A stretch of DNA of 63,459 bases, filler included, from Rozella allomycis CSF55 (taxonomy: Eukaryota), in NCBI GenBank assembly GCA_000442015.1. It is 6 parts of 6 records of this genome, joined end to end, with 100 filler letters (N's around TTAATTAATTAA, not from the genome) between each part and the next. Parts side by side here need not be neighbours in the genome. Positions count along the whole stretch, not along the records: positions 1 to 14,975 come from KE560819.1; 5 more parts are not named here. One strand, 5' to 3'. The notes below the pieces were generated by a model that saw nothing but the letters and a program-made list of their open reading frames with translations, was not told the origin of the DNA and did not search any database. The translations under genes and the position numbers were made by a program. Shown one piece after another: positions 1-60,767 of the stretch. Within the stretch, counting starts at the first letter, position 1, and every line of letters begins with the position of its first letter.

Positions 1-732
1 TATAGACTGATTCCGTCAGAGTGACGGATCAGAGGCGGCAGCCGCGGCACCAGTGAAACCTCAGGCGGACACTGAGGAAAGGTATACCGCGGAAGAGAGG
101 AGCTCTTTTCCTGCATTGGTTTCTTGATGAGCTCGTCACATGGAGATTTGTGAAGTGCCTTATCACCTGCTATATTTAGTCTTCCGGATTTGGAAATATG
201 CCCATTTAACAAAGCTTCAATAATTAGGCGAATTGTGATGGCGATTAACTTAACTCTGATATTAGTTTTCCAGAACTTTTTGTAGTTTTAGTTCGTGGTT
301 TGATTTGGTAGGCCTTACCAGAAGGTNGGCCGATTAGGTGTGACAGTTCTTCTCTTCAAAGATGAATCTTCCAGATCGCGATTGCCATGAACATGGGCGA
401 ATGGCCTATAGACTGATTCCGTCAGAGTGACGGATCAGAGGCGGCAGCCGCGGCACCAGTGAAACCTCAGGCGGACACTGAGGAAAGGTATACCGCGGAA
501 GAGAGGAGCTCTTTTCCTGCATTGGTTTCTTGATGAGCTCGTCACATGGAGATTTGTGAAGTGCCTTATCACCTGCTATATTTAGTCTTCCGGATTTGGA
601 AATATGCCCATTTAACAAAGCTTCAATAATTAGGCGAATTGTGATGGCGATTAACTTAACTCTGATATTAGTTTTCCAGAACTTTTTGTAGTTTTAGTTC
701 GTGGTTTGATTTGGTAGGCCTTACCAGAAGGT
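1..732. repeat. Direct duplication of 1-326 at 407-732 across a single-n join
   Basis: Both copies run tatagactga...ccagaaggt, and the first copy ends exactly at the n at 327. Probably an unmerged contig overlap. Confidence 0.85.
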
Positions 733-1206
733 GGGGAACAAGAATCTCTATGATTACCCACTGCCCTTGGAGAATTAGTCTGTGAGATGGACTATTTCCC
801 AGCCTAGTAATTTTAGTGTCAACCGCACTCGTAGTTGGGTGACGGTATCCTCTTAGGTCCTTTGTTTGGTTAGGAGGGCCAAACAAAGGCTTTTTTGTAA
901 AATGCCCTTTGCATTAGGGCATTTTATTTGGTGTTGAGAGGTTATAACCTCTCGGGAGACTGTGTTTTGTGACTATGGGGAAAAAGGAATTTTCCCGTTT
1001 TAACCAATATATAGCACTACATGCACCTGAAATTTCCTTATTTATAACCAAGAATTTCATTTCGGTTCTCCAAGGGTTTTTAAATCCCCATTTTTGGTCC
1101 CCAAACATCGCAAAATGAAAAAAGCGTTCAGGCTTCAAAAAAATAAGTCTTCATTCAAGTGGTATCAAAAGGTGAACAACAAACCCACAGAAAATAGCAT
1201 TTTTAT

Positions 1207-2560
1207 ATGCTGAACAAACCAAAACAAGTGGCGGCCGGTAATAATATTCACGGCGATGCTGTTGCCGAAAACCAAGGATACGATGATTATGAGGATTACT
1301 ATGAGCAGCCAAAAATCCCTTATCACGCAAAACGTTTCGACCACGAACGTATAAATTGGAAACCGCTATACAAAAGCATAATCGATCGAATTATTCCGTA
1401 CTCAACCATACGGGAGCAGAAATGTAACAGATGCGACAATGAAGAACTCTAAATGTGTAGTGGTTGTGTAAACACAACTATTGTGTGCCTGGGGCATGCT
1501 CAAAACCATATTAAAGAGACTCGCTGCACTATGTATGATCGCGAGCGAAAGATGTTGCAAACCGCTAACTCTGACGTTACTTTGTTTGTGTCCTTGTTTT
1601 TCTGGCATTACGGAAGCTCCACTTCGTTTAATGATATTTTATCAGCGAATTACATGCCCTCCTCTCCATGTAACCCCAAAAACGGCTTCCACTTTAAATT
1701 GTTGCAATTGGCTTCACAAATGTACTTACTGGGCAATTTGTCTCTCTGGGTTATCATGTCGTCCATGTTTCTTAGTCATGCACCTATCAATCTCTATAAA
1801 CGATTTACAGAGACCCTGCGCCGCCAATATATGTTCAGCAAGTATTGTATTGATCATTAGCAGAGGGATCCGCAAGAAGGTATGCAAGGACCATGCATAT
1901 CAGAATGCCCTGCATGCAGTCCACTTGACAATATACTGGAGAGGATGGCGTCTATAAACAAGTGGTTAGTTCTGGAAAGGATACAGATAGTAATTGCCAA
2001 GTCAATCGAAAAGTTCTATTAGTCACAAATACCATTGACTTATGCCACGTATGAAGATACGTGTCGGCTACTGTATGCTAAACGAGAGTTGAGATCACAA
2101 GTGTTAACTAAAAAAGATACGGACAGTGAGAAAATATTAGAGCAAATATATTACAAGGCCAAATATATCAATAAGAGGCGCAAACGACTTACATAATATG
2201 GTACCCAGAGTTAAATGTATGGATAAAAGTAGGTGCAACTAAAGCGTCAAGCATTAGACTTGAAATTTCTCGACTGAAAATAACTATCCAATTTTTGATC
2301 AATCTGTTTTATATTGGACGATAATTACGACAAGTCATTTCGGAATTCAGGATTTATCACGGCTGAGCAATTATCATTCTAAAATGGAGTTACAATTTCA
2401 AGCGAGCGATTCCAACAAAGCATGGAATGAATTGTTGAACATTGAGCGACAACGACATGTTCGTGTTAAGACAATGGCAATTCAATATCGAGAATCGCTT
2501 TTGGAAGTCGTTGTACCAAAGGAAATTGTACAAAGTTTGGGAAGCGTGAATCATGTTTGA
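1207..2560 (+). mobile_element. Degenerate CxC/KDZ (Kyakuja-Dileera-Zisupton)-type transposase remnant
   Basis: Cys-rich start (KCNRC..MCSGC..CLGHAQNH), then ILSANYMPSSPCNPKNGFHFKLL resembling the CxC 'L..G.FP.T...P..AF.F.LL' motif, then ECPAC. Several in-frame stops and no recognisable catalytic core. Confidence 0.5.
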
Positions 2561-3099
2561 CATAAAGACCTATATTCCTTTATTTAAATAAAACTACTTT
2601 TATTTAATTATATAATTATTTACTGAACACTTTTGAAGTACATTAATAATGTTCAAGACTGCATGTACCCGAGGCGGTATCACATATCATCTCACGGCGC
2701 ACGGTTGGTCTTGGTCCGTGCACCACAATCCAAAATTATTACTTAAAGACTCTTGCAACAAACATTTTTTGCTTTAAAGTAAAATTTCGTCTCGTAATGC
2801 ATGATTTGGGCCGATAAATGATAGATGCATCTTATCCAACATAGCAATTTGGTCTCCACGACCTCTCATGTGTCTTAAACCTGAGTACCAAATGTATTTA
2901 GTAACCGCGTGTTTGATGTCGAAAGGGTTGGAATACCGCCAAAATGGCTTTTTATGTACAGCACCAAGAAACAAAAAGTAAATATAGAATTTTATTTCTT
3001 TTAGTTTACGTTCTAGGGATGACATTTCCAAGGAAGTCCATAAATTGGGCTGACATCTAACTCCTGGCGGCCAATTCTCGACTTTTATTTGACCAGTTG

Positions 3100-4930
3100 C
3101 AATTTTTTTTCATGCGACATGTTTCACCGCGCTAATTTACATTTTGTAGTTTTGTCTCAACTCATTTTGAATAATTTGCTTTTATTCCATTCTGTTTCAC
3201 GAGGGACTCCATACATTCAAACTGACTCGAAATTAGACTAAGCTTATTTTGATGATGAAAACTTTTAATCACCAATGGTATTGATATGCCTTCATTCTCT
3301 TAACCCACTTTTACAAATTTCCCTGCTGCAGTACAAGGTGATCCTTCAAATCGACCTTTATAATTAAAGTAACAGACTAAATCTATATTTAGCACCTCAA
3401 ATTTTTTCACGACTTTTGCGTATTCTTCAATGACCTGTTTAGCCAAATTCACGGGTTCTGCCGCTGATATATCCTTTGTCGAGTCAAAATTTTCAAAATT
3501 CTTGCCTGCGTATGCGACGGCCTCCTCGTATATTGGACTCTGCTTATTCTTTGTATTTATTAAAGAATATTGCTTACCAAAATTTGATCGGCAAATCTTT
3601 AGAGTACAATAAAGCGGCATCGGTTCGATCTTGGCTTTCTGTCTTACCATATTCATGAATGGCCTTTCGCCACCCAAGTACACGAGCATAGTTAGTCGGA
3701 CAAAATTTGCGCTTTTTGACTCTTGCCGCAATGATAGACATGTCAACTGCACGATCATTCTGCTGTTCAATAGACTTATCAGCCTTTGAGGTATTCAATT
3801 GTATGTTATTTTTAGTTGGCCGCTTAAAAGTATAAATCTATGCCTGTTATAATCATGCTGCATTTTTACGTTCATTTTCTTAAGCACATTCTGATATTGA
3901 GGGTGTTCNTAATTGTATGTTATTTTTAGTTTGCTGCTTAAAAGTATAAATATATGCCTTTTATAATCATGATGCATTTTTACGTTCATTTTCTTAAGCA
4001 CATTCTGATATTGAGGGTGTTCNTTTCCCTGCTGCAGTACAAGGTAATCCTTCAAACCAACCTTTATAATTAACGTAACAGACTAAATCTATATTTAGCA
4101 TTCACGACTTTTGCGTATTCTTCAATGACCTGTTTAGCCAAATCCTCGGGTTCTTCCGCTGATATATCCTTTGTCGAGTCAAAATTTTCATAATTCTTGC
4201 CTCTAGCGTATTCGACTGCCTCCTCGTATCTCGTATATTGGACTTTGCTTATTCTTTGTATTTTTTTTAAGACAATTGCTTACCAAAATTTGATCGGCGA
4301 CATCTTTAGAGTACAATAAAGCGGCATCGGTTCGATCTTGGCTTTCTGTCTTACCATATTCAAGAATGGCCTTTCGCCACCCAAGTACACGAGCATAGTT
4401 AGTCGGACAAAATTTGCGCTTTTTGACTCTTGCCGCAATGATAGACATGTCAACTGCACGATCATTCTGCTGTTCAATAGACTTATCAGCCTTTGAGGTA
4501 TTCAATTGTATGTTATTTTTAGTTGGCCGCTTAAAAGTATAAATCTATGCCTGTTATAATCATGCTGCATTTTTACGTTCATTTTCTTAAGCACATTCTG
4601 ATATTGAGGGTGTTCCTCAGAAACATAACCCATTGCTGTCATACATTCCTTATGAAGGACTTCTGAGACGGATGTTGCAGTCATTTGCCTGTTTTGTCTA
4701 ATGTCATTAACCATAAAGTGTGTACATAAAAGATTGAATAATTTTCTTTCGTTGTTCATCCAATCTTGTATTTTCCATATTGATATGCGCATTATACTGA
4801 GCGTTGGGTGTGCTATTTGTCGCGGGAAATGACTCAGTGTCTCCGGGAGCGCTACTATTGTTAAACACTTTTTAAATGTAAAATATTGTGTTACCTTCCA
4901 CGCTTGGTCTTTTTGGAGGTCGTAGTACAA
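3100..4930 (-). pseudogene. Multi-copy, frameshifted fragments of an unidentified ORF
   Basis: ORFs 3300-3770/4280-4477 and 3574-3798/4203-4505 encode near-identical peptides. EHPQYQNVLKKMNVKM occurs three times around the n joins at 3909 and 4023. Confidence 0.5.
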
Positions 4931-5351
4931 GTTTCATATATTTTCTTAAATCTGAAGATGGCGAATAGCTTATGAAAACCCTTGGAGAAAAAAATTTTTC
5001 CTTTCTCATAACCTCAAACATGGGTGCAAGCCCTGATATATAGCCTGGTAGTATTTCATTTTCGACTATAAGATTCTTATTAATCTACTATTCTGTCAAA
5101 CACAAAACACTATGAAAAATGTTTATTATATTATAGCGAGCGATATGTAAACACCGATAGCCATGCAAGAGATTCCCGAGACACCGCAGCCAATACCCGT
5201 GGGCTGTGATGATACCAAAATTGCTTGGTGTTTGTAGAACAGACGGAGGCGTATTTTGATTGGTGGGACTAGCAGAAAACAAAGCAAGGGAAACAAAGGT
5301 CGATAAGTAATAACAAGGTGATGTTCAATGCAGTGAAAAATGTAAATTTGT

Positions 5352-6045
5352 CGGAGAATCAGGTCATTGCCTTGATCTGCTCAGAAAATTTAATTAATCA
5401 ATAAAAATGTTGATATATTTAAAAAAATGAGACAACATATATTTTATTTAAGTATTTATGCCAGTCTTCTCAGTATCATTGATGCATCCCTTTTTGCTAA
5501 CGTAAAACTTATCTTTAGACTTTAATCTGGGCCTGTGGTATACCACATTAGTTTCGATATTTTGCACATTGGACACTGCANATTTTCGATTGCGAATCTT
5601 TGTCAAAAAGAATTTGGTATGTAAGCGATATATATGATACTCTTAAACAGAGTCTTAACACGGCATCAACAAAGTTAATGCACTCTTTGCTCACATCATT
5701 TGATTTCTTTAGACAAGAGGAAAGACAAACAGAATTTTACGCAAACGTGCACGGGAAACTTTAAGAATAATTCATGTGGCTGATGAGTTCGATTTGGAAA
5801 CATTTTTCCCATAAACTCCTAATTCACAGGCAGTTTACTTGTTTCTTCTCGACACGGAAGATTTCATGAACCTTCGTGGAAAACGAATTTTGTCCTATAT
5901 TCATGAAGTCAAGACAAATATGCCGGAGAATCAGGTTATTGCCCTGATCAACTCAGATAATTTAATTAATCAATAAGAACTGTTGATATATTTAAAGAGA
6001 AATTATAATTTATTTAAGTGTTTATGCCATTTTTCTCAAAATCAT
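5352..6045. repeat. Diverged ~120-nt direct repeat (about 5352-5478 and 5924-6045)
   Basis: ggagaatcagg..attgcc..gatc..ctcaga..atttaattaatcaataa...gttgatatatttaaa is present twice with substitutions. Confidence 0.75.
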
Positions 6046-6057
6046 TTAGAAATATNT

Positions 6058-6911
6058 AACCCATTCGAGGTGTTATATTAAAATACAATACTAAGTAATG
6101 TTTTAGCTCTTTAGACCATCAAAAATTCAACTCTGTCGGGTTGAACTGGTGAACTTAGTTTGTTGAGTAATCGGAGCCGGGTTAACTATAGAAAACACAA
6201 TTTTCATTTTTAACAAACATTGTGAACTGTATTNTAGTGCCAATCGCAACCAATGTTTTGGCACTCAAGAAAAGTCAATTTTATTTTGAACTAAATGATG
6301 TATTAAAACTGTACTCGTCTACCTAGATTGACAACATTTTTAGTTCCATGTTTTCTTTGTCACATTTTTCAAATTGGTACGGTTTGCCCAACTTACGGAT
6401 TACACCTAATACGTACTAATAAACGAGCCGGAACCCAGTGGAGGCGAAAAGTTAATAGNACAACTTTGTTCAACCATTTTATTACCTTTGCACAAAAATG
6501 CTCTTTATAAGAATACAAATTGTGTTTTGTTTTCAAACTAAGCAGAGCAAATACACAAGCTGACATGAAACGGAAATNACAATCTTGCAAACATCTGTAA
6601 TACTAAAAGCGGAGTTGTCATGGTAATTAGCGGTTGTCAAGAATAACACCGACGACTTTTCAAGCCCTAAATAATTATTTGCCATTATTAATGTATGTAG
6701 AACGATCTGATAATTGAATCTGGACNTTGGTCCGCTACAAAGCGGAGCACTTACGCTATCTCCTCAAGTAAATATTTTTTAACCAATTCGAGGTGTTATA
6801 ATAAAATACAATACTAAATAATGTTTTAACTTTTTAGACCATCAAAAATTCAAATCTGTCAGGTTGAACTGGTGAACTTAGTTTGTTCAGTTATCGGAGC
6901 CGGTTAAACTA
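6058..6911. repeat. Diverged ~130-nt direct repeat (about 6058-6189 and 6781-6911)
   Basis: aacc.attcgaggtgttata.taaaatacaatactaa...gttgaactggtgaacttagtttgtt.ag...cggagcc is present twice. Confidence 0.8.
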
Positions 6912-7211
6912 NGTCATGACAAGATGCCAACACCCTGTGCTCTAGTATGCAAGTCTATCTGCAAAGTATCCGCAATATGTAGGCTTGGATGCATGCTGTC
7001 AGCCAGTCCATAGGTTTAAACGTTGTGTGGGCCAGCGATTTAGTCAACATGTCTCCAAGTGGTCGGGGGTTCGTTGGCAGTGCGGTATATTGTAAAACTC
7101 TTACATGGCGAAGATTAATATATTTGATTGATCAACATTCAACAGCGAAAAACGCAATTTCTCAAACGAATACTAATTGATCAAATAAATCTATTTTATA
7201 TATTTATAAGT

Positions 7212-8632: not shown

Positions 8633-10562
8633 ATGGGACTTTTTGGCCTAGGAGTCGGAGTAGTTTCAACGCTTTATGCCGTTTCATATGAAGTATCTGT
8701 TTTTTGGATTAGCGTAATGTAATTAAATGTTCAAAAAAGAAAATATATGAATTGACTGTGCATCCAATGATAAGAAGAAGACATTGCTATAATATTCTAG
8801 CGACTGCAGAAACATACGAACAATGGAAACAAGCTGCTATGGAATTGGACATGTATTAAATTTGAATTGCCTGAATAGGTTGGAAGGTAATGATGTCTGG
8901 AAAAGGGACCCCTCAAGCAATGATTTTGATGTTGACATGATTGCCAGCAGATTGGATCAAATGAGGGTAGCGAGATCATCAAACGATATACCCGCTATGT
9001 TGTTTCTGATAAAGACAAGTAATTATCGTAGCCTATTAAGATTTAGATTTGTCCAGGAATATTGGAGATATTGCGAATCCTAAACTCTTTTCATTTACAA
9101 ACGTTGGCACCAAACATATAATTGACGAGTACATTAATGAAGTCATAACGCATCTAAAAATTCTATCGGAATATGACCGAGGTGTTTACAGGGACATTAC
9201 ATTAAGAATTGACTTTTTTAAAGCGTTACGAAGAGCATTTGGCAATACTGCTTTACTTCTTTCTGGTGGAGGGACGCTAGGAATGAAACATGTGGGGGTT
9301 ATTAAAAGTCTTCATGAACAAAAATTGCTGCCCAGAATTATTTCAGGTTCTTCATCTGGATCAATTGTGGCCGCAATAATATCAACACGCACTGATAAAG
9401 AGCTTGATACTTTATTGGATACACTTGAAAATTTCAACTTTGATGCTTTCAGTGAACCAAGCTTACCAGACGACGCCTGCTTTATTGCTCATATTCTTAA
9501 AAAAGTTGAAAGATTTATTAAAAGCAGTATTACACGTTTGAATATTAAATAGGCGTCCTATTCGATGTGGAATCTTTGAGAACTTGCATGAGATTGAACT
9601 TGGGAGATATGACCTTTCTTGAAGCTTATAATCGAACCAGGCGAATCTTAAATATCACTGTTTCTTCTTCGACTATATTTGAGATGCCAAGGCTCTTAAA
9701 CTATCTGACTGCACCTAATGTAGTTGTATGGAGTGCTGTTGTCACATCTTGCTCTATTCCAAACTTTTTCAAGGCTTCTCCTTTAATAGCAAAGGATAAA
9801 AATGGTGCTTTTGTTTCATGGAATCCAAGTGGTAATACATAATAGTGAAAAATATAGGGGACACATGGATTGATGGTTCGTTTGAAAAGTATGAAATTTC
9901 AGAAATTATGATAGTGATTTACCGATGAGAAAGTTGAGCGAAGTATTTAATGTTAACCATTTCATAGTATCTCAAACCAATCCCCATGTTTATCTGTTCA
10001 TACCTAATGAACTCAAAAGCAGTTGGAAGTCTTTCTTTATTGACCGACTACTTTTCTTGTGCAATTCAGAAATACAATATAGGTGTTCTCAGCTAATTGA
10101 TCTAGGAATATTCCCATCAATAATGCACAGAGTCCGGTCTATTTTGAGTCAACGATACATGGGCGACATTACAATTGTCCCTCTAATGTCCATAGTGGAC
10201 CTCTTCCGCTTGTTTTCCAACCCCACCAAAGAAAGAATATTGGACTATGTGCGCAAGGGGGAATTGGCTACTTGGCCAAGTATGAAATAATATGTTGTGG
10301 AATAGAACTTTCGATTATTCAAAACCACTGCAGGGTTGAGACTACTCTGGATGAAATCCTTTACAATCTTCGCTGTATAATGATTGATCAGCTGAACATT
10401 AACAAATCTATCGGCCAGATTGAAATGGAGGAACATGAGATGGAGGGAAACGCATCCAAAGACAATATGGCTACCCCTGTTGTTTCCAGGTTCAAGAGAA
10501 AGACCACTATTTCTTCATTGTCGTATTCTTCATTAACCGATCTGCATAACCGTTACCAATAA
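8633..10562 (+). CDS. Patatin-domain triacylglycerol lipase (TGL3/4/5, SDP1-like), multi-exon
   Basis: N-terminal ATAETYEQWKQAAMELD, LLLSGGGTLG, nucleophile GSSSG, MTFLEAYNRTRRILNITV, LLNYLTAPNV, WIDGS and FNVNHFIVSQTNPH. Exons are joined by 26-28-nt introns. Confidence 0.93.
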
Positions 10563-10574
10563 ATCAATGGATTT

Positions 10575-11372
10575 TCATTCTTTGAACAGCCTTTTCACTT
10601 TATGAAGTATGCACAGTTCATGTATAATATGTTGTGGAGTTGATTTCAGTTCTTTTACACTAGGCGCATTTAGTAGAACTGACACCATACTCTTATTTTT
10701 TAGAGTGAATAGATCGTTAAACAGATTGACATCAATTTTCTTCAATTGGGTGGCGACTATATTTAGCTTTGCAAAATGTGACCACAAATCAGAAACTTTA
10801 TATAATGCGCGCAACAACTTGACGTTACAAGGTATGCAATCCAAATCAATACTCATACACATATAATANCTCAATTGGGTGGCAACTATATTTAGCTTTG
10901 CAAAACGCAGCCCCAAATCAGAAACTTTATGTAATGCCCGCAAGAACCTAAAGTGACTAGATATGCAATCCAAATCAATACTCATGCCCATATAATATAT
11001 CTGTGCATCCAATTCCCTCTGCATAAGGTCCCATTCAATTCCATCCCCTGTATTTTCAATTGCCAATTGTGTAACTATTTGCTTCAAATACTGGTAAAAC
11101 CCAATTTCATCATTTTCGTAAAATGCGCGTTTCTTTGATTGACAAGTGTCCTGAATATTTATAGTATCAATTAGATTGGATTCTAAATCGATCAGGGCGA
11201 GTGTATATGAAGAAGTGATGTCAGTGGGTGAGAGCCATGAAAACCACTTGTCGAGTGAGAAACCGGGTATGAAGAGGTTAGTGTGTGGTTTAAGGCATTT
11301 GTAGAGATCAATTAGATATAAATATTGGTTGTTTGGTAGCGGTATAGTGTATAGCCATTGTGAAATATTCAT
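10575..11372 (-). CDS. Hypothetical protein; the internal duplication at the n join is probably an artefact
   Basis: 265-aa ORF. The YYM.MSIDLDCI...FAKLNIVATQL block appears twice, either side of the n at 10869. Confidence 0.5.
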   Translation of the reverse strand: MNISQWLYTIPLPNNQYLYLIDLYKCLKPHTNLFIPGFSLDKWFSWLSPTDITSSYTLALIDLESNLIDTINIQDTCQSKKRAFYENDEIGFYQYLKQIVTQLAIENTGDGIEWDLMQRELDAQIYYMGMSIDLDCISSHFRFLRALHKVSDLGLRFAKLNIVATQLXYYMCMSIDLDCIPCNVKLLRALYKVSDLWSHFAKLNIVATQLKKIDVNLFNDLFTLKNKSMVSVLLNAPSVKELKSTPQHIIHELCILHKVKRLFKE

Positions 11373-11460
11373 GATTTGTTTGTTTATGCATCGAATTGAG
11401 TTTGCTTATGTATTAAATTGAGATTAACATAAAAATTAGAAATATAATTTATTGGTCTGT

Positions 11461-14400
11461 TCAATTCAATAAATCAATGTCCTTTCTGAACGAAAAGTCT
11501 TCAAAATGTAGTTCATCGTTGCTCGACATGACAGATTCAGTGATAACCGGCGCTTGGTCTGTAAACTCTTGATCAAAATACCTATTTCCCATTTAAACAT
11601 ATTTTACCTATATGAAACACACATAACAACTTACCTAGTATCGATATCGTTTCTCAAATCTGGCACAAACGGCGGCCTGACCAACTTTTTAAACACCATG
11701 TTGAAATCCACTCCATGAAAGAAATCATGCCTTCTAATAGCACAGCTGGCATCACTCCCACATCCCAGCCTGTATTGTGGTTCTCTAACAAGAAACTGTT
11801 CAATGATAGATTTCGTTTGGGTGTTTAAATGATTCGGATAGTGTATGGGTTCTCTTAAAATCTTTTCGTATAGTTTGTGCCTGTTGGGGGAATAAAAGGG
11901 ATGAAACCCGCATGTCATTTCAAAGATGATTATGCCGAATGCCCACCAGTCTGCTGCGAATCCCTGTGTTTCAAACAGGATTACTTCTGGTGCGAAATAT
12001 TCGAGGGTGCCTGAGAATGATTTTGTTGTTTCGTCGTATCGTTTGCAGAGCCCGAAATCTGTTATCCGAATGTGGCCGTCTTTATCTAGTAGAATGTTTT
12101 CTAGTTTGAGATCCCTTGTTGGAACAAGATGATATTTCTACCTTACAATATGAAGAACAATTCGTTACCTGTAAACATAACCTTTGCCATGAAGACATTC
12201 AAGAGCCAGTAGCATTTCAGCAGCATAAAATTGAGCTCTTTCAAAAGAAAATTTACCGAAACGTTGTAAATGAAAAAACAATTCACCACCGTTGACATAT
12301 TCCATTACTAAGTACAATTTGTCTCTAGTTTGAAATGCATAATGCAGACTAACAAGAAAGGGATGCATGATGCCTCTTAGCAATTTGTTTTCATTTACGC
12401 TTGTTTCTGGTGCGTATTTCTTTTTTAAAACTTTTATAGCGAATAGTTGGTCAGTTGATTTCTTGTTTGATAAATAAACTTTGCCATATTGACCCTGGCC
12501 AAGAACTTTGATTATTTCAAAATCGCTAATAGAAATAACAGAAGCGTTGGCAGTTGAATTTGATTTAAAAGACATTGAATTTGATGTTGAATTTGATGTG
12601 CACGCAAGGGATAGTGATTCAATCCAATCTGCGCATTCTTGTTTATTGGATGCTTTCAGATGTATTTTGAGATTATTGTTGTAAATCAGAGTGAATGAAT
12701 GAAGAGATTTATTTCTTTCATCACAAAATATTTTTATTTGAGATAATGGAAACTTTAATTGTTCTTTTGAACTCTTCATGTTGAAATAACAATTCTCAAT
12801 AAAACACCAATAATTAACCCAATTGTTAAGAGATAAAGATAACAACCAACCTTCTTTAATGACGAGATCAATTTTGACGATTTTTTCAGTAAAACTTGGA
12901 TTTGAAATTTTATTTAAAGCTTTTAACATTAAATCAATTTCAGTTCCAAAGAATCCAGCTAGTTTATTAACAGTTGAATTGAAAGCAACACCATCATTCT
13001 CTTTATCATTTGATTGTTCAATTCTTTTAAATAGAAATAATTGTTTATCTCTCCATTTCAACATTCTTTCATACAAAATTTCATCATCTTTTAATTCTTT
13101 TTCATGTCCATTATTCACTTCAAATATTTTATAATTTTCTGAATCATTAATGTTTTTATTTAAACAAATTTTATCTACAATTTCTTTTGATCTTTCTGTT
13201 GTTGAAATTATCATCTTTTTATATGAATGATCAACAAAGTTTATTCTAACAATCAATTTACCAGATTCCAATTTAATCTAAATTTATTTTTTAATTAATC
13301 TTTTTTTACTTTGTTTGATTTCTTTTCAATTTCTCTTCTTATTTTGTCAACTTCATTTTCATCTTTCACTCCAAAGAAATTTACTAATTTTCCTGTTCTA
13401 TTTTTAGAATTCTCTTCAGGGGTACAATTCTCACTCAAACTCAAATCAGCGTTATTCAAACTAATTAAAGTTAAACTAGATGTTAAATTGTCACTCTCTT
13501 TCACATTCAAATTCTTAATAACATTTCTTATTTGATCAACTTCATCTTCATTCTTTTCAACTCCAAAGAAATCAGCAATTTTAAGAGTTCTCTTTGTCAT
13601 TTTATTCATTAAATTATTTTCATTCACAATTTGCTCTTCTCGTGGAATTCTTTCATCTTCAAGAAGAAATTCATATATTTTATCACTCTTCATCAAATCT
13701 ATTCTCTGCAATGGAATTTCATTCTTTTCTAAACAAATAAATTCTTTAAATTAAATAAAATCTTTCTTTACCTTGATTTAATATCAAATTTAATTTAAAA
13801 TGTTCTTCTTCATCCCTCTTCCCTTCTCTGTCTAAAATAGTTCGAATAATCTCCAAACAACAAGTTCTTTCTGTTATTGATATATTAAATAATTTCTTCA
13901 TAAATATTAACTTTACATACACTGATTCTCTCTCTTCTTCATTCTTATTCTGCCTCTTCTTGTACACAAAGATTTCTTTAACATTCCATGGATTAAATGG
14001 AGTTTCTCCCATCATTATTTCTTCAAGCTCATTAAATTTATTTATTCTATAAAGAGAATAGTTTAGCATTTCACTACTACTTTCACTACTCTTCTCCCCT
14101 TGTTCGCTAATTCTTCCTCCTCTTTCATTACCCTCCAAAGTCTTGCTATATATCATTTCAATAGCTTTCAACGCACTAGTAAACACACTAAACCTCATAT
14201 CCACCATCTCCCCACTCTCCTCAACTCTTATCCTAAACCTACACGAATTCTCAACATCCTCAACCAGCAGCCTAAACCCCTTCCCATCCCTCCCAACAAT
14301 GTCCCCAAAAGTCATCGCATATCCACACCCCCTCTCATCACAATCACAATCATACACATAAACTCTAAACCTCTCACATCCTGCCGCCAGCCCCTCACCC

Positions 14401-14888
14401 GCTTTCTCAATAATCACAGTATCAATAAACTCTCCAACAGTCATTTCAGGCGGCCCATAAACTGTGCAGAATCCAACACGCTCAAAATAGAAACTTATTT
14501 CAATCGACTCTTGCCGCGCTTCAGAATGGTTAAACGATTGCGAGCGCATAAATTTAATGGTTTGGTTGTCGCTCACATCCAATTCAGTCGTTGGATTCGA
14601 TAGGTATGGGCGCATATACGCAGAAAACTGTTGCTCCGTATCAATGTCATCCGCAATGAAATCATGAGAGATATCGTTGTTTATGTTGTCTTCACAAAGT
14701 TCCACGTTTCTTTGTTTCATGGGATTGCAATAATTCTTATCGTCTTCTTGCATTACTTGGATGCTTTCAACACTCTGCAAGGTACTCTCCGTGCCGTTCA
14801 CAATCATCTTGAATTCCAAAGTTAAAGGTTTTGGCGGCGTAATTTGAAATAATTCACTGGCGCTTTTAGAAAGTTTGTCAGATATCAT
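11461..14888 (-). CDS. AGC-family (Akt/SGK/S6K-like) Ser/Thr kinase with several N-terminal RA/ubiquitin-like domains and a PH domain
   Basis: Kinase motifs LGQGQYGKV, FAIKVLKK, YRDLKLEN, DFG, SFSGTLEYFAPE, PPFVP, DTRYFDQEFT and hydrophobic motif FEDFSF. PH domain KEGWL...LKASNKQECADWIESL. RA-like LIVRINFVDHSYKKMII...YKIFEV...EKELKDDE. Introns at 13744-13771, 13278-13309, 12115-12168 and 11582-11634. Confidence 0.9.
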
Positions 14889-14975: not shown

Positions 14976-15075
14976 NNNNNNNNNNNNNNNNNNNNNNNNN
15001 NNNNNNNNNNNNNNNNNNNTTAATTAATTAANNNNNNNNNNNNNNNNNNNNNNNNNNNNNNNNNNNNNNNNNNNN
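14976..15075. other. Scaffold spacer (Ns around TTAATTAATTAA); identical spacers at 35865-35964, 53680-53779, 55421-55520 and 60668-60767
   Basis: The same 100-nt N pad with a six-frame stop linker occurs five times. Confidence 0.98.
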
Positions 15076-18653: not shown

Positions 18654-21121
18654 TTAAAAAAACATCGAAGGTAATCCCTTGGACTTTCGATTATTCGATA
18701 TTCTTCTTGAAAAGGTGGAAAAATAATTCCCGATGAAAAAGTCAGCGTGATAACATATTTCTTGTTCCAGAAAGGGGAGCAAATCATCTGTTTTCATGTC
18801 CATCGGTAACAATTCTGGGTTGTTTTGAATTCCTTTCATTATTACATCACTGTTAAAAACATTCAACGTGGTGTTTAGGTAAGATTGCGAAAATTCTTCG
18901 GGCTTGTTGGTGGATACATAAATTGACTTCACTGGTCCGAACTTTTGAATTTCTTTTTGAATCCTTAGCGAAATAACATTATTTGAAGGGTAGCACTTGT
19001 CGATGGAGAATCCACGAAGCCAAGTTTTCAGTAAACCTGGTTCCTTTTTTATGCGTTCAGCCAAGTGCGAACAATAGTTTTCAAAATCCCCCCGCCGAGC
19101 GTGAATACATATGAATGGGCTTTTGCCAAAACTTTCTTGTATAATATTCGAGACTACATTTCTATTTCATCTAACTAGCCTTTTTTACTTGAGTGAATGT
19201 TTCAAATTCCATAATCCCGAAACAGCTTTAGAATGTTGGCGATTCTTTGTTCTTGTATCAAACTTGTAAAATCCCATGAATAAAGTGTTAAATGATAAAA
19301 TATCATCATCGCAAGACCCATACAAGCGTTTTATATCTTTTTCATAGCGATTGGAGCCTTGTATTCTGTATTTAACAGGAGAATCTAAACCATGTTTTTC
19401 AAGTAAAACATTATTAGGCTCAAGAAAGTTAGTTAGCCCTTCCAATACAATCATTCTTCGTGGTGGAGGCAATTGTAGGTCAACAAATTCATCAAAGTAT
19501 GTGAAATTGATGTATTGAGACAGTTTGTCTTCATTTATGTCAAACAAAGAATTTAGAGAGAACCAACTTTGATTTGTGGATTGCACTGGGGGCAAAACTA
19601 AAGTACGCTTCAAAATGTGGGCATAGGCTATAGCATCTTCATACGCTCGAAGCTGATTATTAAACCCGAGTTGAGGTTGAAAAATGATATACTTTTCATC
19701 TGAAACTGGTTCTTCTCTTTCTAATGACCCAAATAGATCCAGAACACAATGATTATTTCCGTCTACAGTATTTATACCATAGAATCTTTTGAATAACTCT
19801 TTTGTATTTCTATTTGTATGATATAGCTGTTCTAAGGCACCCAGGCCAGTTTCGAATAGATGAACTACAGACGGAACTTTTCTATGATAAATGTCAAACA
19901 CGTCAAGATCTTTAATGGGTTTGTTCAAATCATTCCAGAATTTTCTTGACTTCAGGAAACTATCGTCTTCATGAAGAGAAACTGTATAGACCCATAGTTT
20001 TTTCTTTGTCAAGGTGAATGAAGAGGTTTTTCCGGCGGCACCCTTCGATCCTGTATGTTCGCCTTTTTGAATTGCTTTTGATAACTTACCTGGTTCACGG
20101 TGGTTAGTTGAAAATGATAATTGATCAGGGAAATTTGGGTAAATCATGAACCATCCTCTGGCATACGATAAGTCGATTAGATGCCTATTGTAATATACGT
20201 CTATTTCTACCTCTTCCAGGATCTTCTCCATGTATTACTATGAGCATTTGGTGCAATTATTCTAGAGCCAAATTTTCGAACTGCTACTTCACTCGTTCTC
20301 CAGTCATAGTACTCCTTAAATTCACGCCACACTTTAGGAAAGTATACAGCGCCCCAGCTGCAAGGAATCTGGAACATAAATAAAGTACTATTTTGGACGA
20401 TATCTGATGGTATCCATTTTAAAGGAGGATGCACTATTTCATTCCACCTTGGAGTGTATAGAGAAATACCCATCATTTTTGATAAGACATCCGCATTTTC
20501 ACGAAAAACATACCTATTAATATTCATTAGAATAAAACCAAAATAATATTTGGACACTTCGATATCATCTTCCAGGAAAATGGCATATTCATCATCCGAT
20601 GCAGGAGACCATGCCGACATTATCATCTAGTAAAACATCATCCGAAATATTACTTTTTCCAATCCTAATCTATCCGTTCGTATATTTCTGATCGTATCTC
20701 CATGTGGCCATTTGAATGAATCGACTAAGGCTATGACCTCTTCACCAGCATCGCCATCAACATTGATTTGAATATCGACTTTCACTCCAAAGTATAGAGC
20801 GTTTGTTAATGATGTAAGTAGTCTCTGTAAAGATGCAAATCTTCTCCAACCGAAAACCTGTACTACGAATGAAGGATAAGGTCTTGATAGACTTTCTTCA
20901 GTAATGGAATTAACCACTTTTTTATCCCAATTTTTATACAAATGATCATAAAAAACGTCTTTATCAGGATGGGAGACCCAGTTATCAACTACAGCGGTTG
21001 CATTGAAGTCCATGACATTGGGTCGGTATAATACAGGCAAAAGAGATATAAATATCGCGCCAAATATGACGATGGACTTGTAGGATATTCTATAGGCTGA
21101 GAATTTAAACTTTGGATGCAT
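18654..21121 (-). CDS. Type II membrane glycosyltransferase fusion: GT-A-like domain plus O-fucosyltransferase-like domain
   Basis: N-terminal TM segment. GT-A motifs RFASLQRLLTSL, IFLEDDIEVS, GISLYTPR, QIPCSWGAVYFP and NHREPGEH. O-FucT motifs GFNNQL..LKRTLVLP, CIHARRGDF, IYVST and EQEICYHADFFIGNYFSTFS. Four 26-27-nt introns join these into one frame. Confidence 0.8.
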
Positions 21122-35864: not shown

Positions 35865-35964
35865 NNNNNNNNNNNNNNNNNNNNNNNNNNNNNNNNNNNN
35901 NNNNNNNNTTAATTAATTAANNNNNNNNNNNNNNNNNNNNNNNNNNNNNNNNNNNNNNNNNNNN

Positions 35965-36921
35965 TCGTCCAAACCAAAGTTCGTGGACGAAATTTTACGC
36001 AAAAGCCCAAGATGGTGACTTTTTAGAGACTCTAAGTTTTCCCAAAGATACCTTCGAGTACATTTATTCATTTTTTGAAGATTGCTATGAGATGAAGACT
36101 GGTTTTGGGCAGCTGGGAAGACCCAGTCGCCTAACAAATAAACGAGCAGTCCTGGGTCTACTACTGTCTTTCTATAATGGAACATGCGGCAAAAACGCCT
36201 TTGTGTCCTTTTTGGAGTACCAATGTCGACTCTATCCAAAATCTTGTAGAAAGCAGAGATGGCCTTAAGAAAAGCGATTAACATGATTCCAGAAGCTGCA
36301 ATTAGATGGCCGACGTTACAGGAACAATACCTATGGGCTTCCAAAGTTACCGCGAAAGAACCTTTAGTCGGAAACAAATGGGGATTTGTAGACGGGAAGA
36401 ATTTTAGAGTTGAAAAGCCTGCCGACGCAAATACTCAAAACGCCATGTATAATGGCTGGCTTCATCAAACATTAGTTACAGGTACAATTTGTTTTGGCGC
36501 AGACGGAACTATTGTTTGGGCAAAACATAATTGCCCGGGCTCATGGAACGATGGCGACACCAGTCGTGCCCTCCAAAACAAACTTTCTGATCCACGTTTT
36601 TCTCCGGATCCCAACATGGGTATACTAAGTGATTCGGCGTTTCCAGTGCTGGGCGCCGTAAAAGGAAAAATTGTGACCCCATTGAAAGATGGCGATCTGG
36701 GTAGAATCCACCCATCGTGTAGATCAGCAGCCACCGCCATGTCTAATGCTATCACCTCTTTACGTCAAGCCGCGGAATGGGGAATGGGTGCTATCGAAAA
36801 GCCGTTTGAGAGATTGTTAATGAAATTACCTAGCAATAAGTTTAGAAGATCAATAAGACTGTCAAACATCTTTCGGCTTTATAACATTAGAGTTCGTCGC
36901 ACGGGAATAAGTCAAATATGA
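35965..36921 (+). pseudogene. Harbinger DDE transposase (DDE_Tnp_4), disrupted 5' part
   Basis: WGFVDG, YNGW, PGSWND, LSDSAF and RQAAEWGMG. The upstream HTH-like LCVLFGVPMSTLS is followed by an in-frame TAG at 36247. Confidence 0.88.
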
Positions 36922-36940: not shown

Positions 36941-38023
36941 TTAATCTTTATTGTTCATTAGTTTCAACATCATCATAAATCGTTTATCGACATCTTCTCT
37001 TTCTTGTCGTCTTACTAAATCTCGTTCTTCCCTTTCTTCCTTACGAATTCTTTCAGCTTCTTGCTTTTCCTCCTTTCTCACTTTCTTTAAATATTCCATT
37101 TCCATTCGTCTTTGTTCCCGGGATTTTCTTTCCAACAAAAAAAAATTCATAAAATCCGATGAAGTTTCAAAATTTTCCTTTTCATGAGAGGTTTGATGTT
37201 GTTTCTCCAATCGCTTTTGTGCCGTGTGAGATAAAACATTATTATGTGGTACCTTTATCTTTCTCAAATCATCAATACCAAGTCTGAGATGAGAATACGG
37301 AAGATTTAATTTTGTTGAAATTTTCTTTACTCGCTTTGCACTGGGAGTTGAAAGTATAGAATTTGTTTCCGTGTCCAATTCAGGTTGCGTTGAAAGAGTG
37401 TTATCATCTTCAAATTGCGTGAAATCAAAAGATGGATCTTCAAATTCGTCTTTATTGTTATCGCCTAAAAGTTCGTCAAACGGCATTATCATATCCCCGG
37501 ATATGACAAAATTGGTAATAGCATTTGCCGCCGCTTTCTCCCATGGTTCTTCCAGTCGATCATCGTCCTCTTCAGCTACAGCATTGGTTGTTTCAATCAA
37601 CCGTTGAATTTGTTTAGCTTCTCGGACATGTGGAGGACAATCAGGATCCCCNAAATTGGTTACAGCATTTGCTGCCGCTTTATCCCTTGGTTCCTCCAAC
37701 CGATCATCGTCCTCTTCGGCTACAGCATTGGTTGTTTCAATCAATCGTTGAATTTGTTTAGCTTCTCGGACATGTGGAGGACAATCAGGATCCCCTACTT
37801 TATTTGCTTTTAATTCTTTACCTGTAGGTTTTGGAGTGTTTCTTAAACTATTAAACTTTCGTTTAATAGCATCCAACTCCCTATCAGCAAAACCAGACGG
37901 TCTGCGCAAATTGTACTTCACCGTGACCTCTTCCCATTGAAAGCCACCAGCAGGTAATATTTCTTTCACAATATCTAGCATTCTTTTGGTTTCACAATCT
38001 TTCCAACCTTTTCCTCTTGTCAT
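36941..38023 (-). CDS. Harbinger ORF2, Myb/SANT-like DNA-binding protein with acidic middle and coiled-coil tail
   Basis: MTRGKGWKDCETKRMLDIVKEILPAGGFQWEEV..RELDAIKRKF..KPTG|DPDCP, with an in-frame 27-nt intron. A segment is duplicated at the n join (37652). Confidence 0.75.
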   Translation of the reverse strand: MTRGKGWKDCETKRMLDIVKEILPAGGFQWEEVTVKYNLRRPSGFADRELDAIKRKFNSLRNTPKPTGKELKANKVGDPDCPPHVREAKQIQRLIETTNAVAEEDDDRLEEPRDKAAANAVTNXGDPDCPPHVREAKQIQRLIETTNAVAEEDDDRLEEPWEKAAANAITNFVISGDMIMPFDELLGDNNKDEFEDPSFDFTQFEDDNTLSTQPELDTETNSILSTPSAKRVKKISTKLNLPYSHLRLGIDDLRKIKVPHNNVLSHTAQKRLEKQHQTSHEKENFETSSDFMNFFLLERKSREQRRMEMEYLKKVRKEEKQEAERIRKEEREERDLVRRQEREDVDKRFMMMLKLMNNKD

Positions 38024-38325
38024 TTTGAGTTTGTAACCAGGGTGCGCTCGCAAATTTGCGATCGATTTGCGACGCTCGCAAAAAAAAATTTGCGAAACCG
38101 TNTATCTTTCCAACCTTTTCCTCTTGTCATTTTGTGTTTGTTACCAGGGTGCGCTCGCAAATTTGATTTTGCAAAAATTTGCGAAATCAAATTTGGGTCG
38201 AAATTTGCGATCGATTTGCGACGCTCGCAAAAAAAATTTGCGAAACCGTTTGCGCGATTTTCGAAACACGTCCATTGGTCTATTCAATTGTTTAGGACGT
38301 TAGGAATAANATTTCGGAGTATTTA

Positions 38326-41300
38326 GCACCAGCGTCTGATCTCGTCCCAGATTGGCGCTGTCTCTTTTTTGAATTTTCGGAAATATGAAGTTAACTTGAA
38401 TAAGACAACTTTAGTTAATATGGCCTGAATTTACCTACAATCATCAATTCGTTAATTCTCTTTAATTCTTGTAAATTAGTTTGTTTTCCTCGTCACTTTG
38501 TTAAAACAGTTGAGTCTTGATTTCCTTTAATACTAGCGGTTGCAACAAAATAAAATATAAAAATATTATAACATAAACTGCTCATTTTGTATTAAATTCC
38601 GCTTCAAATTGGCTTCTTTGGGCCTTTGCGTTACAACCTATTGATGAAAACGTTCGTTCACGCTTTACTAGAATAAGACCTGTCCGTGTAACTATATGTA
38701 GTAACATCGCCATGCGAAATTTCGTTCTTAAAGTCTAAAGTCTTTTTGCTCAAAACTCCATTGACAGTGTGTGTCATAAGTTAAGCCACGAAAACAATGT
38801 TGACCATATTTAAACAGGCAAATTGTATCTGATTCACGGGCACTATTACAATATGTAAACCGATATAACGATAACATATTTAGTGCCAATGAAGATGCGA
38901 TTTGCACTTTTTGGTCTAAAGGCACGCATTTTAAGGCTGTATAGGGCATTTTCAACGATTTTTGCTGCAGTACCATCCAAGTTTGAATAATCAAATTTAT
39001 TGTCGAGTTTCTACAAAATATTAAAATGCTGAACGCGGCAATGGTTAACTTATATTTATGCTGTTAAAGCGCACCTTACAAGTCAACGAGGTAGATGATT
39101 TATTGCGTCCTCTAAAACAATATTAACGTATATAAAGTCCATACCAAGCATGAACAATGGCAATTGCGAGCATGTTTAAGGTACAATAAAAAATATACAG
39201 ACTACAACAATAAGTAATAGCTTTGTGCGAACATAGATCACTTTACTTAATTTTGCCAGCACGGTAAGAATCTAAAAAATGATTCAGACTCTTATTTTTT
39301 AACTGCATGCTTTTCAAATCCAATTGTTCAGCTGCGTCCCCTGGGGCTAAACAATGTGCACATGCGTAGTCTTTTATAACAGAAATTAAGGCTTTGAAGC
39401 GTGAATAGGATTTTGCTTTTGCACTGGTGTCTTTCAAGACATTAACTGTATGATTAAGTTCCATAGAGTGAGGCGGGCAAATCGCATGTGCCCAAAGTAT
39501 ATAAACTCCAAATTCTTTCCAACGTTTTAATGTCTCTCAATGCGGGCAAACACAAACTATTTGTAATGGGCTTGGAAATAATGGGCTTAGAATTTATAGA
39601 AGGTTGTTTGTGCTGACTTGTGCTGTGTAAATCAGGGACTGCAATATGCGCATTAGAGTTATTGGGTGCTCCTCTGGACCTTAATTGAGCGATTTCCTCT
39701 TTTAATTCATTAACAGTGGACACCAATTCCTGCATCACAGAAGTTACATGTTGAATGCTGTTTACGTTTTGATCAAGCGCAACTACCAACGCCGGCATTG
39801 AAAGCTACGTAAATACATCATAAATCGTCTTACATTAGTTTCAAACTCATTGTGTTCCTTCACCGTTTGATCTACGTGCGGTATTTGGAGAAGGGCGGGT
39901 TCAAATAGCAAGTACTCCGGTGTTTTAAACACTTCATGAGTAAATACAAAATGGGTCGCGAAAGTCTTTTTTAGAATTGGCGCATCTTGAATAATAACGG
40001 TGCAAGATACGTCAATAAGTTTAAAAAATTTTGAGTTGTTGCCTTGTTTAGTANGACTACTACCTATTATTGTGAATTCCATAAGAACAATCCGAGAGTG
40101 CGACACAACACCGAGGACTGTAGAGCTCGCCAGAGCAGAACAGGAAACAACTCGGGGCGGTCGGAGGAAAAGAAAGAGGCAAGAAAGGTCTTCATCAAGA
40201 AACTCTGCGATAAGTGTGCACAACCTTATGAGAAGGGCCACAATGAAGTGTGTGAGAAGAGAAAGAAGAACAAAGAAGCATCATCTAACGTTCATAACAG
40301 GAGAATAGATCTCCGCGAAGAATTCCCTGAAGAACTCTTGGAAGAAGACGATATTATCGTACCAGGAACAATCCAATTTAACATGGTTAAAAACTTAAAC
40401 CCTGTCAAGTTTTTGTACACATCCATATCCGCAAATGGGGTTAATGCCCGAGCGGGAATAGATTCTATGAGTACACACTCTTTCATTTCTCCAGCCATGG
40501 TTCAAGAACTTTCGATTAAGGTGAATCCAGTGAAAGGGGTATTGCATTTTCGACCAATATTTCTGCAGTACCATCCACGTTTGAATAATTTAATTTACTG
40601 TCGGGTTCATACAAAATATTAAAATGCTAATAGCGGCAATGATTAACTTCTATTTATGCTGTTAAAACGCACTTTACAAGTCAACGAGGTAGATGACCTA
40701 TTGCGTCTTCCAAAATAATACTAACATAAATACTGTGCATAATAAACATCAATCAAAGCGATTCGAGCATGTTTAAGATACAAAAAACTAGTCAGACGTA
40801 AACAATTTGTAATTGATGTCTGCAAATATATATCATTTTATTTAATTTTGCCAGCACGATAGATATCTAAAACGTGATTTAGACTCTTATTTGTTAACTG
40901 CATCCGTTTCATAGTCAATTGCTCAGCTGCGTCCGCTGGGGCTAAACAATGTTTACATGCTAGTCTTTTATAACAGAAATTTAACCTTTGAAGCGTGAAT
41001 ATGATTTCGCTTTTGCACTGGTGTCTTTTAAGACACTAACTGTATGATTAAATCCATAGAGTGAATGGCGGGCAAATCGCATATGCCCAAAGTATATAAG
41101 CTCTAAATTCTTTCCAAAGTTTTAATCTCGCGCAATGCTGGCAAACAAATATTANCGTGATTTAGACTCTTATTTGTTAACTGCATCCGTTTCATAGTCA
41201 ATTGCTCAGCTGCGTCCGCTGGGGCTAAACAATGTTTACATGCTAGTCTTTTATAACAGAAATTTAACCTTTGAAGCGTGAATATGATTTCGCTTTTGCA

Positions 41301-53679: not shown

Positions 53680-54133
53680 NNNNNNNNNNNNNNNNNNNNN
53701 NNNNNNNNNNNNNNNNNNNNNNNTTAATTAATTAANNNNNNNNNNNNNNNNNNNNNNNNNNNNNNNNNNNNNNNNNNNNTGACTCGGAATTTTGATAAAT
53801 AGATTGTTTTTATTCAGTTGTTAAAGAACAGAAGTGAAGAAAGAAATCAAAAGATTCAATAGTGAAGGAATCGATATAGGATTCAAAGCAGTGAGAGGCA
53901 GAGGGGGCGACATAGGAGACAATAAGACAGAGGATGAAGAAACTGATATACGAAGAATGCAATCAAATCTAGTTCATGCATTTGAAGTTTACAAAAAGAT
54001 GAATGAAATGGCAGATAAGGGATGTTTGTTTTTGAGGCATGAACTAACATGATGAAGTCTTGACCGACCAAATATGGATAGCAAAGGGCGGAGATGCTTA
54101 GGATTCACGATTACGGATTATACGGAAATGATT

Positions 54134-60667: not shown

Positions 60668-60767
60668 NNNNNNNNNNNNNNNNNNNNNNNNNNNNNNNNN
60701 NNNNNNNNNNNTTAATTAATTAANNNNNNNNNNNNNNNNNNNNNNNNNNNNNNNNNNNNNNNNNNNN

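What the first reader, a model, noticed from the sequence alone, without database searches (positions are those of the whole stretch)
11582..11634. Second tandem twin intron (27+26 nt) in the same kinase gene
Seen (minus strand): GAT ACT AG|gtaagttgttatgtgtgtttcatatag|gtaaaatatgtttaaatgggaaatag|G TAT TTT GAT restores the AGC-tail DTRYFDQEFT. The units are 11634-11608 and 11607-11582, each with a GTAA donor and a TAG acceptor. These two cases are the only introns well above ~32 nt among the several dozen I reconstructed, and both have a central AG|GT, so chance seems unlikely. Both sit in an AG|G exon context and the halves are not obvious copies of each other. Inference: a new intron was gained at the proto-splice site of an existing one, or a micro-exon shrank to zero.
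Basis: partly seen in the sequence, partly recalled or inferred. Interest (0 to 1): 0.85.

Follow-up and report, generated by a model that had tools for sequence, protein, structure and literature searches.

The report
Two abutting mini-introns in Rozella kinase
A 53-base interruption in a Rozella allomycis protein kinase gene looks like two of this parasite's standard ~27-base introns placed end to end with no exon between them, a miniature of the stepwise splicing known from very long animal introns, but no RNA data were available to show how it is removed.

Summary
The window is Rozella allomycis nuclear DNA. The finding lies in an RA-PH-AGC kinase gene (minus strand, 14888..11461; EPZ35551.1).

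Observation: confirmed. Removing exactly 11634..11582 (53 nt) restores DIDTRYFDQEFT, without gaps against a Catenaria homologue. Read-through stops at once.

My reconstructions give a unit intron size of 24-32 nt, 70 of 75 predicted. The 53-nt and 54-nt kinase introns are the only clear exceptions. The 53-nt one splits at TAG|GTAAAA into 27 + 26 nt. Each half scores like an ordinary intron, at the 27th and 37th percentile of 62.

It is the only such abutting pair on both strands of the window, against 0.1-0.2 expected. A random 53-nt intron would show a central AGGT in 1.1% of cases, and two passing halves in 0.11%.

The 54-nt intron is a weaker twin: its inner donor is GTAG, and G at +4 occurs in 0 of 62.

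Not shown: that the halves are spliced separately. No RNA run covered the gene and no close relative was found.

Verdict: probably a zero-length-exon (abutting-intron) arrangement, a new variant of a known kind. Origin is open. Interest is moderate.

The parts
11608..11634 (-). Unit a: 27-nt intron-like unit, GTAAGT...ATATAG
   Evidence: Donor plus acceptor score 11.3, the 27th percentile of 62 reference introns. A minor DNA variant adds one base after 11626 (X1, depth 354 of 1798), as tolerated in non-coding sequence.
11582..11607 (-). Unit b: 26-nt intron-like unit, GTAAAA...AAATAG
   Evidence: Score 11.9, the 37th percentile of 62.
11606..11609 (-). Inner AG|GT: acceptor of unit a directly abutting donor of unit b (zero-length exon)
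   Evidence: It is the only abutting pair in the window with both units at or above the 5th percentile.
11635..12114 (-). Exon before the 53-nt intron: C-lobe of the kinase domain, ends GAT ACT AG
   Evidence: Pfam Pkinase profile 123-254 of 263, E 1.2e-28. Coordinates.
11461..11581 (-). Last exon: G TAT TTT GAT... (YFDQEFT, FEDFSF tail) to TGA
   Evidence: Pfam Pkinase_C profile 9-44 of 44, E 1.5e-6. Coordinates.
12115..12168 (-). Companion 54-nt intron (27 + 27, centre AAG|GTAG) at YVYR|DLKLEN
   Evidence: Its halves score at the 6th and 2nd percentile, so it is a weaker twin.
11461..14888 (-). Whole RA_2 - PH - AGC kinase gene (EPZ35551.1). Its other introns are 13771..13744 (28 nt) and 13309..13278 (32 nt)

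Best explanation
The 53-nt interruption is a composite of two complete, unit-length spliceosomal introns (27 nt and 26 nt). They abut at TAG|GTAAAA, so the 'exon' between them has zero length.

Proposed mechanism (inferred, not shown). Rozella's splicing machinery is tuned to introns of about 26-30 nt. It pairs each donor with the nearest good acceptor. Each unit is therefore cut out in its own reaction, in either order. Removing unit a puts exon ...CTAG in front of GTAAAA, leaving unit b intact. Removing unit b leaves ...ATATAG|G for unit a. Only the doubly spliced RNA encodes the kinase's C-terminal tail. Either half-spliced RNA reads AGG TAA and stops at once. One-step removal from the outer donor to the outer acceptor may also occur in parallel.

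Shown: the anatomy, the need to remove exactly 53 nt, the unit size of this genome's introns, and the non-random position and quality of the inner sites.

Inferred: actual use of the inner sites.
For: (1) Unit size. 70 of 75 predicted introns are 24-32 nt, and 51 of those 70 are 26-28 nt. An independent ORF-joining seed set gives the same picture. Papers state that Rozella introns are about 30 nt (PMC6349667, passages) and that the lowest fungal intron median in a set that included Rozella was 29 bp (PMC8042348, passages).

(2) Size match. 53 = 27 + 26, twice the unit.

(3) Signal quality. Both halves carry ordinary signals: GTAAG and GTAAA are 9 and 25 of 62 donors, and TAG is 32 of 62 acceptors. 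Total scores fall at the 27th and 37th percentile.

(4) Uniqueness. Exactly 1 abutting pair passes the 5th-percentile threshold on both strands of the 63-kb window, and it is this one. Thirty simulated windows average 0.2, or 0.1 at the stricter threshold.

(5) Conditional chance. Given a 53-nt intron, a central AGGT is expected in 1.09%, two passing halves in 0.11%, and halves as good as observed in 0.013%. The 54-nt neighbour also has a central AGGT (1.30%).

(6) No helping structure. No RNA fold would shorten the intron (z -0.18 and +0.29).

(7) Precedent. [quoted passage not shown] A zero-length exon is known in S. pombe (bioRxiv 10.1101/226894). [quoted passage not shown] Passages only were read for all of these.
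Against: No transcript evidence of any kind. No RNA run held the gene, and all laid runs were DNA contigs.

Both public gene models simply remove 53 nt. They are predictions and do not distinguish one step from two.

Nothing shows that Rozella cannot splice a 53-nt intron in one step.

The reference intron set comes from my own gene finder, which has a length prior and misses some exons. It missed kinase exon B and a 26-nt patatin intron at 9889-9914.

The public model EPZ35551.1 also removes an AT-rich 45 nt at 13911..13867 with no central AGGT. If that is a real intron, longer single introns exist in this same gene.

I found no sharp branch-point motif, so I could not test whether each half has its own branch site.

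The companion 54-nt intron is a poor twin.
Confidence: 0.6

Rival explanations
1. One ordinary 53-nt intron, removed in a single reaction from the outer donor (11634) to the outer acceptor (11582) using a branch site in the 3' half. The inner AG|GT is either a relic of how the intron arose (composite by descent only) or is silent.
For: Both public protein models are compatible with it. Spliceosomes generally have a lower length limit, not an upper one (general knowledge). In Lipomyces a complex intervening sequence can be removed either in one reaction or in two (PMC7138796, passages). A possible 45-nt intron without a central AGGT is annotated in the same gene.
Against: A good acceptor sits exactly one unit length (27 nt) from the donor, in a genome where 70 of 75 predicted introns are 24-32 nt. 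Ignoring it would need explanation. A purely chance AGGT is unlikely (1.09%; 0.11% with both halves passing).
Confidence: 0.3
2. A regulatory switch. The inner sites are used so that a share of transcripts stays half-spliced. These read AGG TAA and end before the YFD/hydrophobic-motif tail, which tunes the amount of active kinase.
For: Either half-spliced form meets TAA immediately (sequence). The site lies just before the Pkinase_C tail. In vertebrates, recursive-site exons are proposed to act as binary splicing switches (PMC5126111, passages).
Against: No expression data at all. Any retained short intron in this genome would usually give a stop as well, so the feature is not specific.
Confidence: 0.05
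3. Not an intron pair at all, but an assembly artefact or a coding insertion.
For: None found. The window does carry many N positions elsewhere.
Against: DNA contigs of two runs from different studies bridge the stretch with its length unchanged (X3, X5); one contig of a third run, X1, ends inside it and carries a 1-nt insertion variant at low depth there. Read-through hits TAA at once. Homologues have no residues there.
Confidence: 0.02

Closest known systems
Recursive splice sites / zero-length exons of long animal introns (Drosophila Ubx-type 'ratcheting points', vertebrate RS-sites). Cited via PMC6616335 and PMC5126111, passages read.
   Same: A 3' splice site directly abuts a 5' splice site (YAG|GT) inside an intervening sequence, so the sequence can be removed piecewise and nothing is left in the mRNA.
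   Different: Those sites subdivide introns of tens to hundreds of kilobases. Here the whole interruption is 53 nt and each piece is at the organism's minimal unit size. Either order of removal is possible here because both units are complete. No RNA evidence exists here.
Zero-length exon in the 336-nt intron of S. pombe SPNCRNA.445 (bioRxiv 10.1101/226894, passages read)
   Same: A fungal-lineage example of a 3'SS immediately next to a 5'SS within one annotated intron. The authors called it the first documented recursive splicing in a yeast.
   Different: That case is in a non-coding snoRNA host transcript, in a much longer intron, and was shown by spliceosome profiling and RT-PCR. The Rozella case lies in a coding sequence, is ultra-short, and rests on sequence only.
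Fungal stwintrons (spliceosomal twin introns) and the Lipomyces complex intervening sequences (PMC6616335, PMC7138796, passages read)
   Same: Two U2-type intron units occupy one intron position. Removal by two consecutive reactions is possible, with an alternative one-step route.
   Different: In a stwintron the internal intron is nested inside the donor, branch or acceptor element of the external one, which only becomes functional after the first excision. Here the units are side by side and both are intact from the start.
Ordinary ultra-short Rozella allomycis introns (about 30 nt; PMC6349667 passages)
   Same: Each half has the length, the GTAA(A/G) donor, the TAG acceptor and the AT-richness (GC 0.30 and 0.23 against a mean of 0.24) of the standard introns.
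   Different: No exon separates the two.

Membership tests
Rozella ultra-short spliceosomal intron (each half taken alone) | GT...AG boundaries with GTA(A/T/C) donor and (T/A)AG acceptor | tested here: met
   GTAAGT...TAG and GTAAAA...TAG. Donor and acceptor types are common among the 62 reference introns.
Rozella ultra-short spliceosomal intron (each half taken alone) | Length within the 24-32 nt class | tested here: met
   27 and 26 nt. 70 of 75 predicted introns are 24-32 nt.
Rozella ultra-short spliceosomal intron (each half taken alone) | Excised from RNA | not testable with these tools
   No RNA run held the gene. Only DNA contigs were laid.
Spliceosomal intron (the 53 nt as a whole) | Removal restores a conserved reading frame, and retention breaks it | tested here: met
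Zero-length exon / recursive splice site (abutting introns) | Acceptor AG immediately followed by donor GT inside the intervening sequence | tested here: met
   ATATAG|GTAAAA at 11609-11606.
Zero-length exon / recursive splice site (abutting introns) | Inner sites of functional quality, placed more often than chance | tested here: met
   27th and 37th percentile. 1 pair seen against 0.1-0.2 expected in the window. 0.11% conditional chance.
Zero-length exon / recursive splice site (abutting introns) | Splicing intermediates or lariats showing stepwise removal | not testable with these tools
   No RNA data.
Zero-length exon / recursive splice site (abutting introns) | Conservation of the inner sites in relatives | tested here: inconclusive
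   A contig of a more divergent DNA run (X5, 25 differences over 10989-12064) bridges the site with no length change listed. Letter-level differences inside the intron were not shown (117 rows cut). No close relative was found in metagenomes (best 48% identity).
Stwintron (nested spliceosomal twin intron) | The internal intron interrupts the donor, branch or acceptor element of the external intron, which forms only after the first excision | tested here: not met
   The units are side by side. Both donors and both acceptors are intact in the DNA.

The most novel reading that the evidence does not exclude
Rozella's spliceosome may have an effective upper length limit near 32 nt. Intervening sequences longer than that would then persist only as chains of unit-length introns joined at AG|GT. 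Genome-wide, the rare 45-65-nt 'introns' would be doublets. Such doublets would record intron birth at the proto-splice sites that every existing intron boundary recreates.
Probability: 0.2. Interest if true: 0.8.

Novelty: new variant of a known kind. Interest (0 to 1): 0.55.

Why it matters
If the two halves are really spliced separately, this would be the smallest known case of recursive (zero-length-exon) splicing, and it would sit inside a coding sequence.

It would show that a genome whose introns have shrunk to a fixed unit size handles a longer interruption as two units.

That would give a direct handle on two open questions. The first is whether ultra-short-intron spliceosomes measure intron length. 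The second is whether new introns arise at the AG|GT sites created by existing intron boundaries.

It also bears on annotation. Public Rozella gene models treat these as single long introns. They also contain dubious in-frame 'introns' that would blur genome-wide length statistics.

Tried and rejected
RNA evidence. The look-up of sequencing runs listed no RNA holder. The one RNA run laid (X11) gave only a 35-nt spurious match. Nothing can therefore be said on expression or splicing. A first read-laying request failed on short pieces between N runs.

Own genome. None is held, so no genome-wide count of doublet introns was possible.

Relatives. The metagenome scan kept 80 of 273 loci, best 48% identity, mostly intronless transcripts. 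No orthologue was found.

Duplication origin. The halves are no more alike than random intron pairs. For halves against flanking exons, 7 of 8 comparisons were unremarkable. Unit a against the downstream exon reached the 99th percentile of a null that was not conditioned on the shared GTA start. I treat that as not significant.

Branch sites. No sharp motif or position was found in 62 introns.

RNA structure bringing the ends together: none.

Flat-prior gene finder. It produced many long 'introns' that resolved into short introns plus small exons once a length prior was added. These are not counted as evidence.

A 73-nt GT..AG stretch upstream of the Mpv17 gene lies before its start codon and is not a needed intron.

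Literature searches for tandem, abutting or zero-length-exon mini-introns in Rozella or other ultra-short-intron organisms found none. Subscription journals and supplements were not searched.

Full report
**What the window is**

The longest kinase exon is 100% identical to RKP16890.1. It clusters with EPZ35551.1, 'Protein kinase, catalytic domain-containing protein [Rozella allomycis CSF55]'. GC is about 0.28-0.42.

The gene lies on the minus strand from ATG 14888 to TGA 11461. Pfam finds RA_2, PH and the first half of Pkinase in exon 13268..12171. It finds Pkinase positions 123-254 of 263 in 12113..11637, and Pkinase_C in 11580..11464.

**The observation**

The minus strand reads GAT ACT AG | 27 nt (11634..11608, GTAAGT...ATATAG) | 26 nt (11607..11582, GTAAAA...AAATAG) | G TAT TTT GAT.

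- Reading through gives NDIDTR followed by TAA.
- Removing exactly 53 nt gives DIDTRYFDQEFT, as in both public models.
- BLASTP against a Catenaria kinase (55% identity over 297 residues) has no gap at this junction or at YVYR|DLKLEN, where the 54-nt intron sits. So 53 and 54 nt must be removed, and no residues are missing.
- DNA contigs of runs from different studies bridge the site (X3 11289-11663; X5 10989-12064). It is therefore not an assembly artefact.

**The unit size of this genome's introns**

An ORF-joining scan gave a seed set of GTA...AG introns of mostly 26-30 nt between long open frames.

A simple Viterbi gene finder used a codon score, splice-site matrices and a length prior with a flat tail to 200 nt. 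It predicted 75 introns. Seventy are 24-32 nt: 24:1, 26:19, 27:13, 28:19, 29:9, 30:4, 31:1, 32:4. The other five (39-183 nt) sit in models with scores of 1-5. Sixty-two lie in models scoring 20 or more and were used as the reference set.

The finder broke the kinase gene at exactly the two long introns.

Caveats:
- The prior favours short introns.
- The finder missed kinase exon B and a 26-nt patatin intron at 9889-9914.
- With a flat prior it bridged small exons with long false introns.

The literature agrees on the scale. Rozella introns are described as short, about 30 nt (PMC6349667, passages). The lowest median among the fungi of one study that included Rozella was 29 bp (PMC8042348, passages; its Table S7 was not visible).

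**Is the central AG|GT more than chance?**

Matrices were built from intronic positions only (donor +1..+8, acceptor -12..-1). With these, unit a scores 11.3 (27th percentile of 62) and unit b 11.9 (37th).

I scanned both strands of the window for two abutting 24-32-nt units, each at or above the 5th percentile. This finds exactly one pair, the finding itself. Thirty Markov-simulated windows average 0.2 pairs, or 0.1 at the stricter threshold.

I also kept the real outer ends and drew the interior from an intron-trained Markov chain. The results for a 53-nt intron were:
- a central AGGT with halves of 24-32 nt in 1.09% of simulations;
- both halves at or above the 5th percentile in 0.11%;
- both halves as good as observed in 0.013%.

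The 54-nt intron has a central AGGT in 1.30% of its simulations.

The empirical AGGT rate inside the 62 short introns is 3 in 1277 positions, which gives the same order of magnitude.

**The companion 54-nt intron is weaker**

Its halves score at the 6th and 2nd percentile. The inner donor is GTAG, and G at +4 is seen in 0 of 62. At that relaxed quality, abutting pairs are not rarer than chance in the window (9 against 4.35 simulated). In that scan the 54-nt pair itself fell just under the threshold. It supports the pattern only through its length (2 x 27) and its central AGGT.

**How it most likely works**

The acceptor ATATAG lies exactly one unit length from the outer donor, and a full unit follows it. 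I therefore think each unit is usually removed in its own reaction, in either order.

- The half-spliced forms read AGG TAA (from the sequence).
[quoted passage not shown] There the sites defining the smallest internal intron are chosen first (PMC7138796, passages).
- No RNA fold would shorten the intron (z -0.18).
- No branch motif could be defined for this genome.
- All of this is inference. No RNA run covered the gene.

**Origin**

- The halves are not similar to each other, so I see no sign of a recent duplication.
- They are not convincingly similar to the flanking exons either.
- No residue is missing at the junction, which speaks against a vanished micro-exon.
- The exon context is AG|GT, found at only 2 of 62 ordinary introns. 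Every boundary here is AG|GTA. That fits a second intron arising at a proto-splice site made by the first. It fits equally well new inner sites arising within a longer intron.
- No relative close enough to decide was found.

**Comparison with what is known**

- The arrangement matches abutting U2 introns and zero-length exons removed by recursive splicing in animals (PMC6616335, PMC5126111).
- It also matches the single S. pombe case (bioRxiv 10.1101/226894).
- It is not a stwintron, because the units are not nested.
- What is new is the scale (two minimal units, 53 nt in all), the coding context, and the link to a genome with a fixed intron size.
- Searches for such cases in Rozella or other ultra-short-intron organisms found none.

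**Verdict**

- The composite anatomy is well supported for the 53-nt intron and weakly for the 54-nt one.
- Separate splicing and the origin remain untested.
- I rate it a new variant of a known kind, of moderate interest.

Noticed in passing
window 12115-12168 (-): The companion 54-nt intron at YVYR|DLKLEN splits 27 + 27 at AAG|GTAG. Its second half is a poor intron (2nd percentile; GTAG donor, 0 of 62). Three unrelated metagenome loci (L072, L077, L080) carry 33 extra nt at exactly this YR|D position, so the position may be old or recurrent.
   Followed up: partly
window 13196-13261 (-), 12774-12818 (-), 13867-13911 (-): The public model EPZ35551.1 removes three in-frame stretches as introns (66, 45 and 45 nt). 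The first two lie inside the RA_2 and PH matches, which Pfam reads straight through, so they look like annotation errors. The third is AT-rich, lies outside any domain and is undecided. Such models would distort Rozella intron-length statistics.
   Followed up: partly
window 20185-20238 (-): In the O-fucosyltransferase-like gene, two candidate 26-nt introns lie 2 nt apart or abut (GTAATACATGG...GGAAG and GTAGAAATAGACG...AATAG), and only one can be used to keep the frame. The AT-rich GTAG-donor unit looks more intron-like than the one my gene finder chose. If it is the real one, GTAG donors exist in Rozella.
   Followed up: partly
window 9889-9914 (+): A further 26-nt intron in the patatin-like lipase gene joins WIDGSFE to NDLPMRKLSEVFNVNHFIVSQ. 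My gene finder missed it.
   Followed up: yes
window 11626; 11384; 10859-10989: DNA-run variants: a 1-nt insertion inside unit a in a minority contig of X1, a 22-nt deletion at 11384, and a 129-nt deletion at 10859-10989 in X5. The last lies in a locally repeated stretch downstream of the kinase gene. X5 differs from the window at 25 positions over about 1.1 kb, so two diverged haplotypes or strains exist. RKP16890.1 likewise differs from the window's protein at 4 residues.
   Followed up: no
window 14976-15075, 35865-35964, 53680-53779, 55421-55520, 60668-60767: Five places have the same odd pattern: 44 N, 12 bases, 44 N. There are also about 28 single N positions, clustered in 1-7000 and 37600-43400. 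The first block starts at 14976, right after the 14975-nt contig length recorded for EPZ35551.1, so these are probably scaffold joins.
   Followed up: no
window 55877-60526 (-), 36250-36918 (+), 37655-38101 (-), 41917-42255 (-): Mobile-element-like ORFs: a 1550-codon ORF with an endonuclease/exonuclease/phosphatase domain, a DDE_Tnp_4 transposase, DUF6818 and an NDC10_II-like piece.
   Followed up: no
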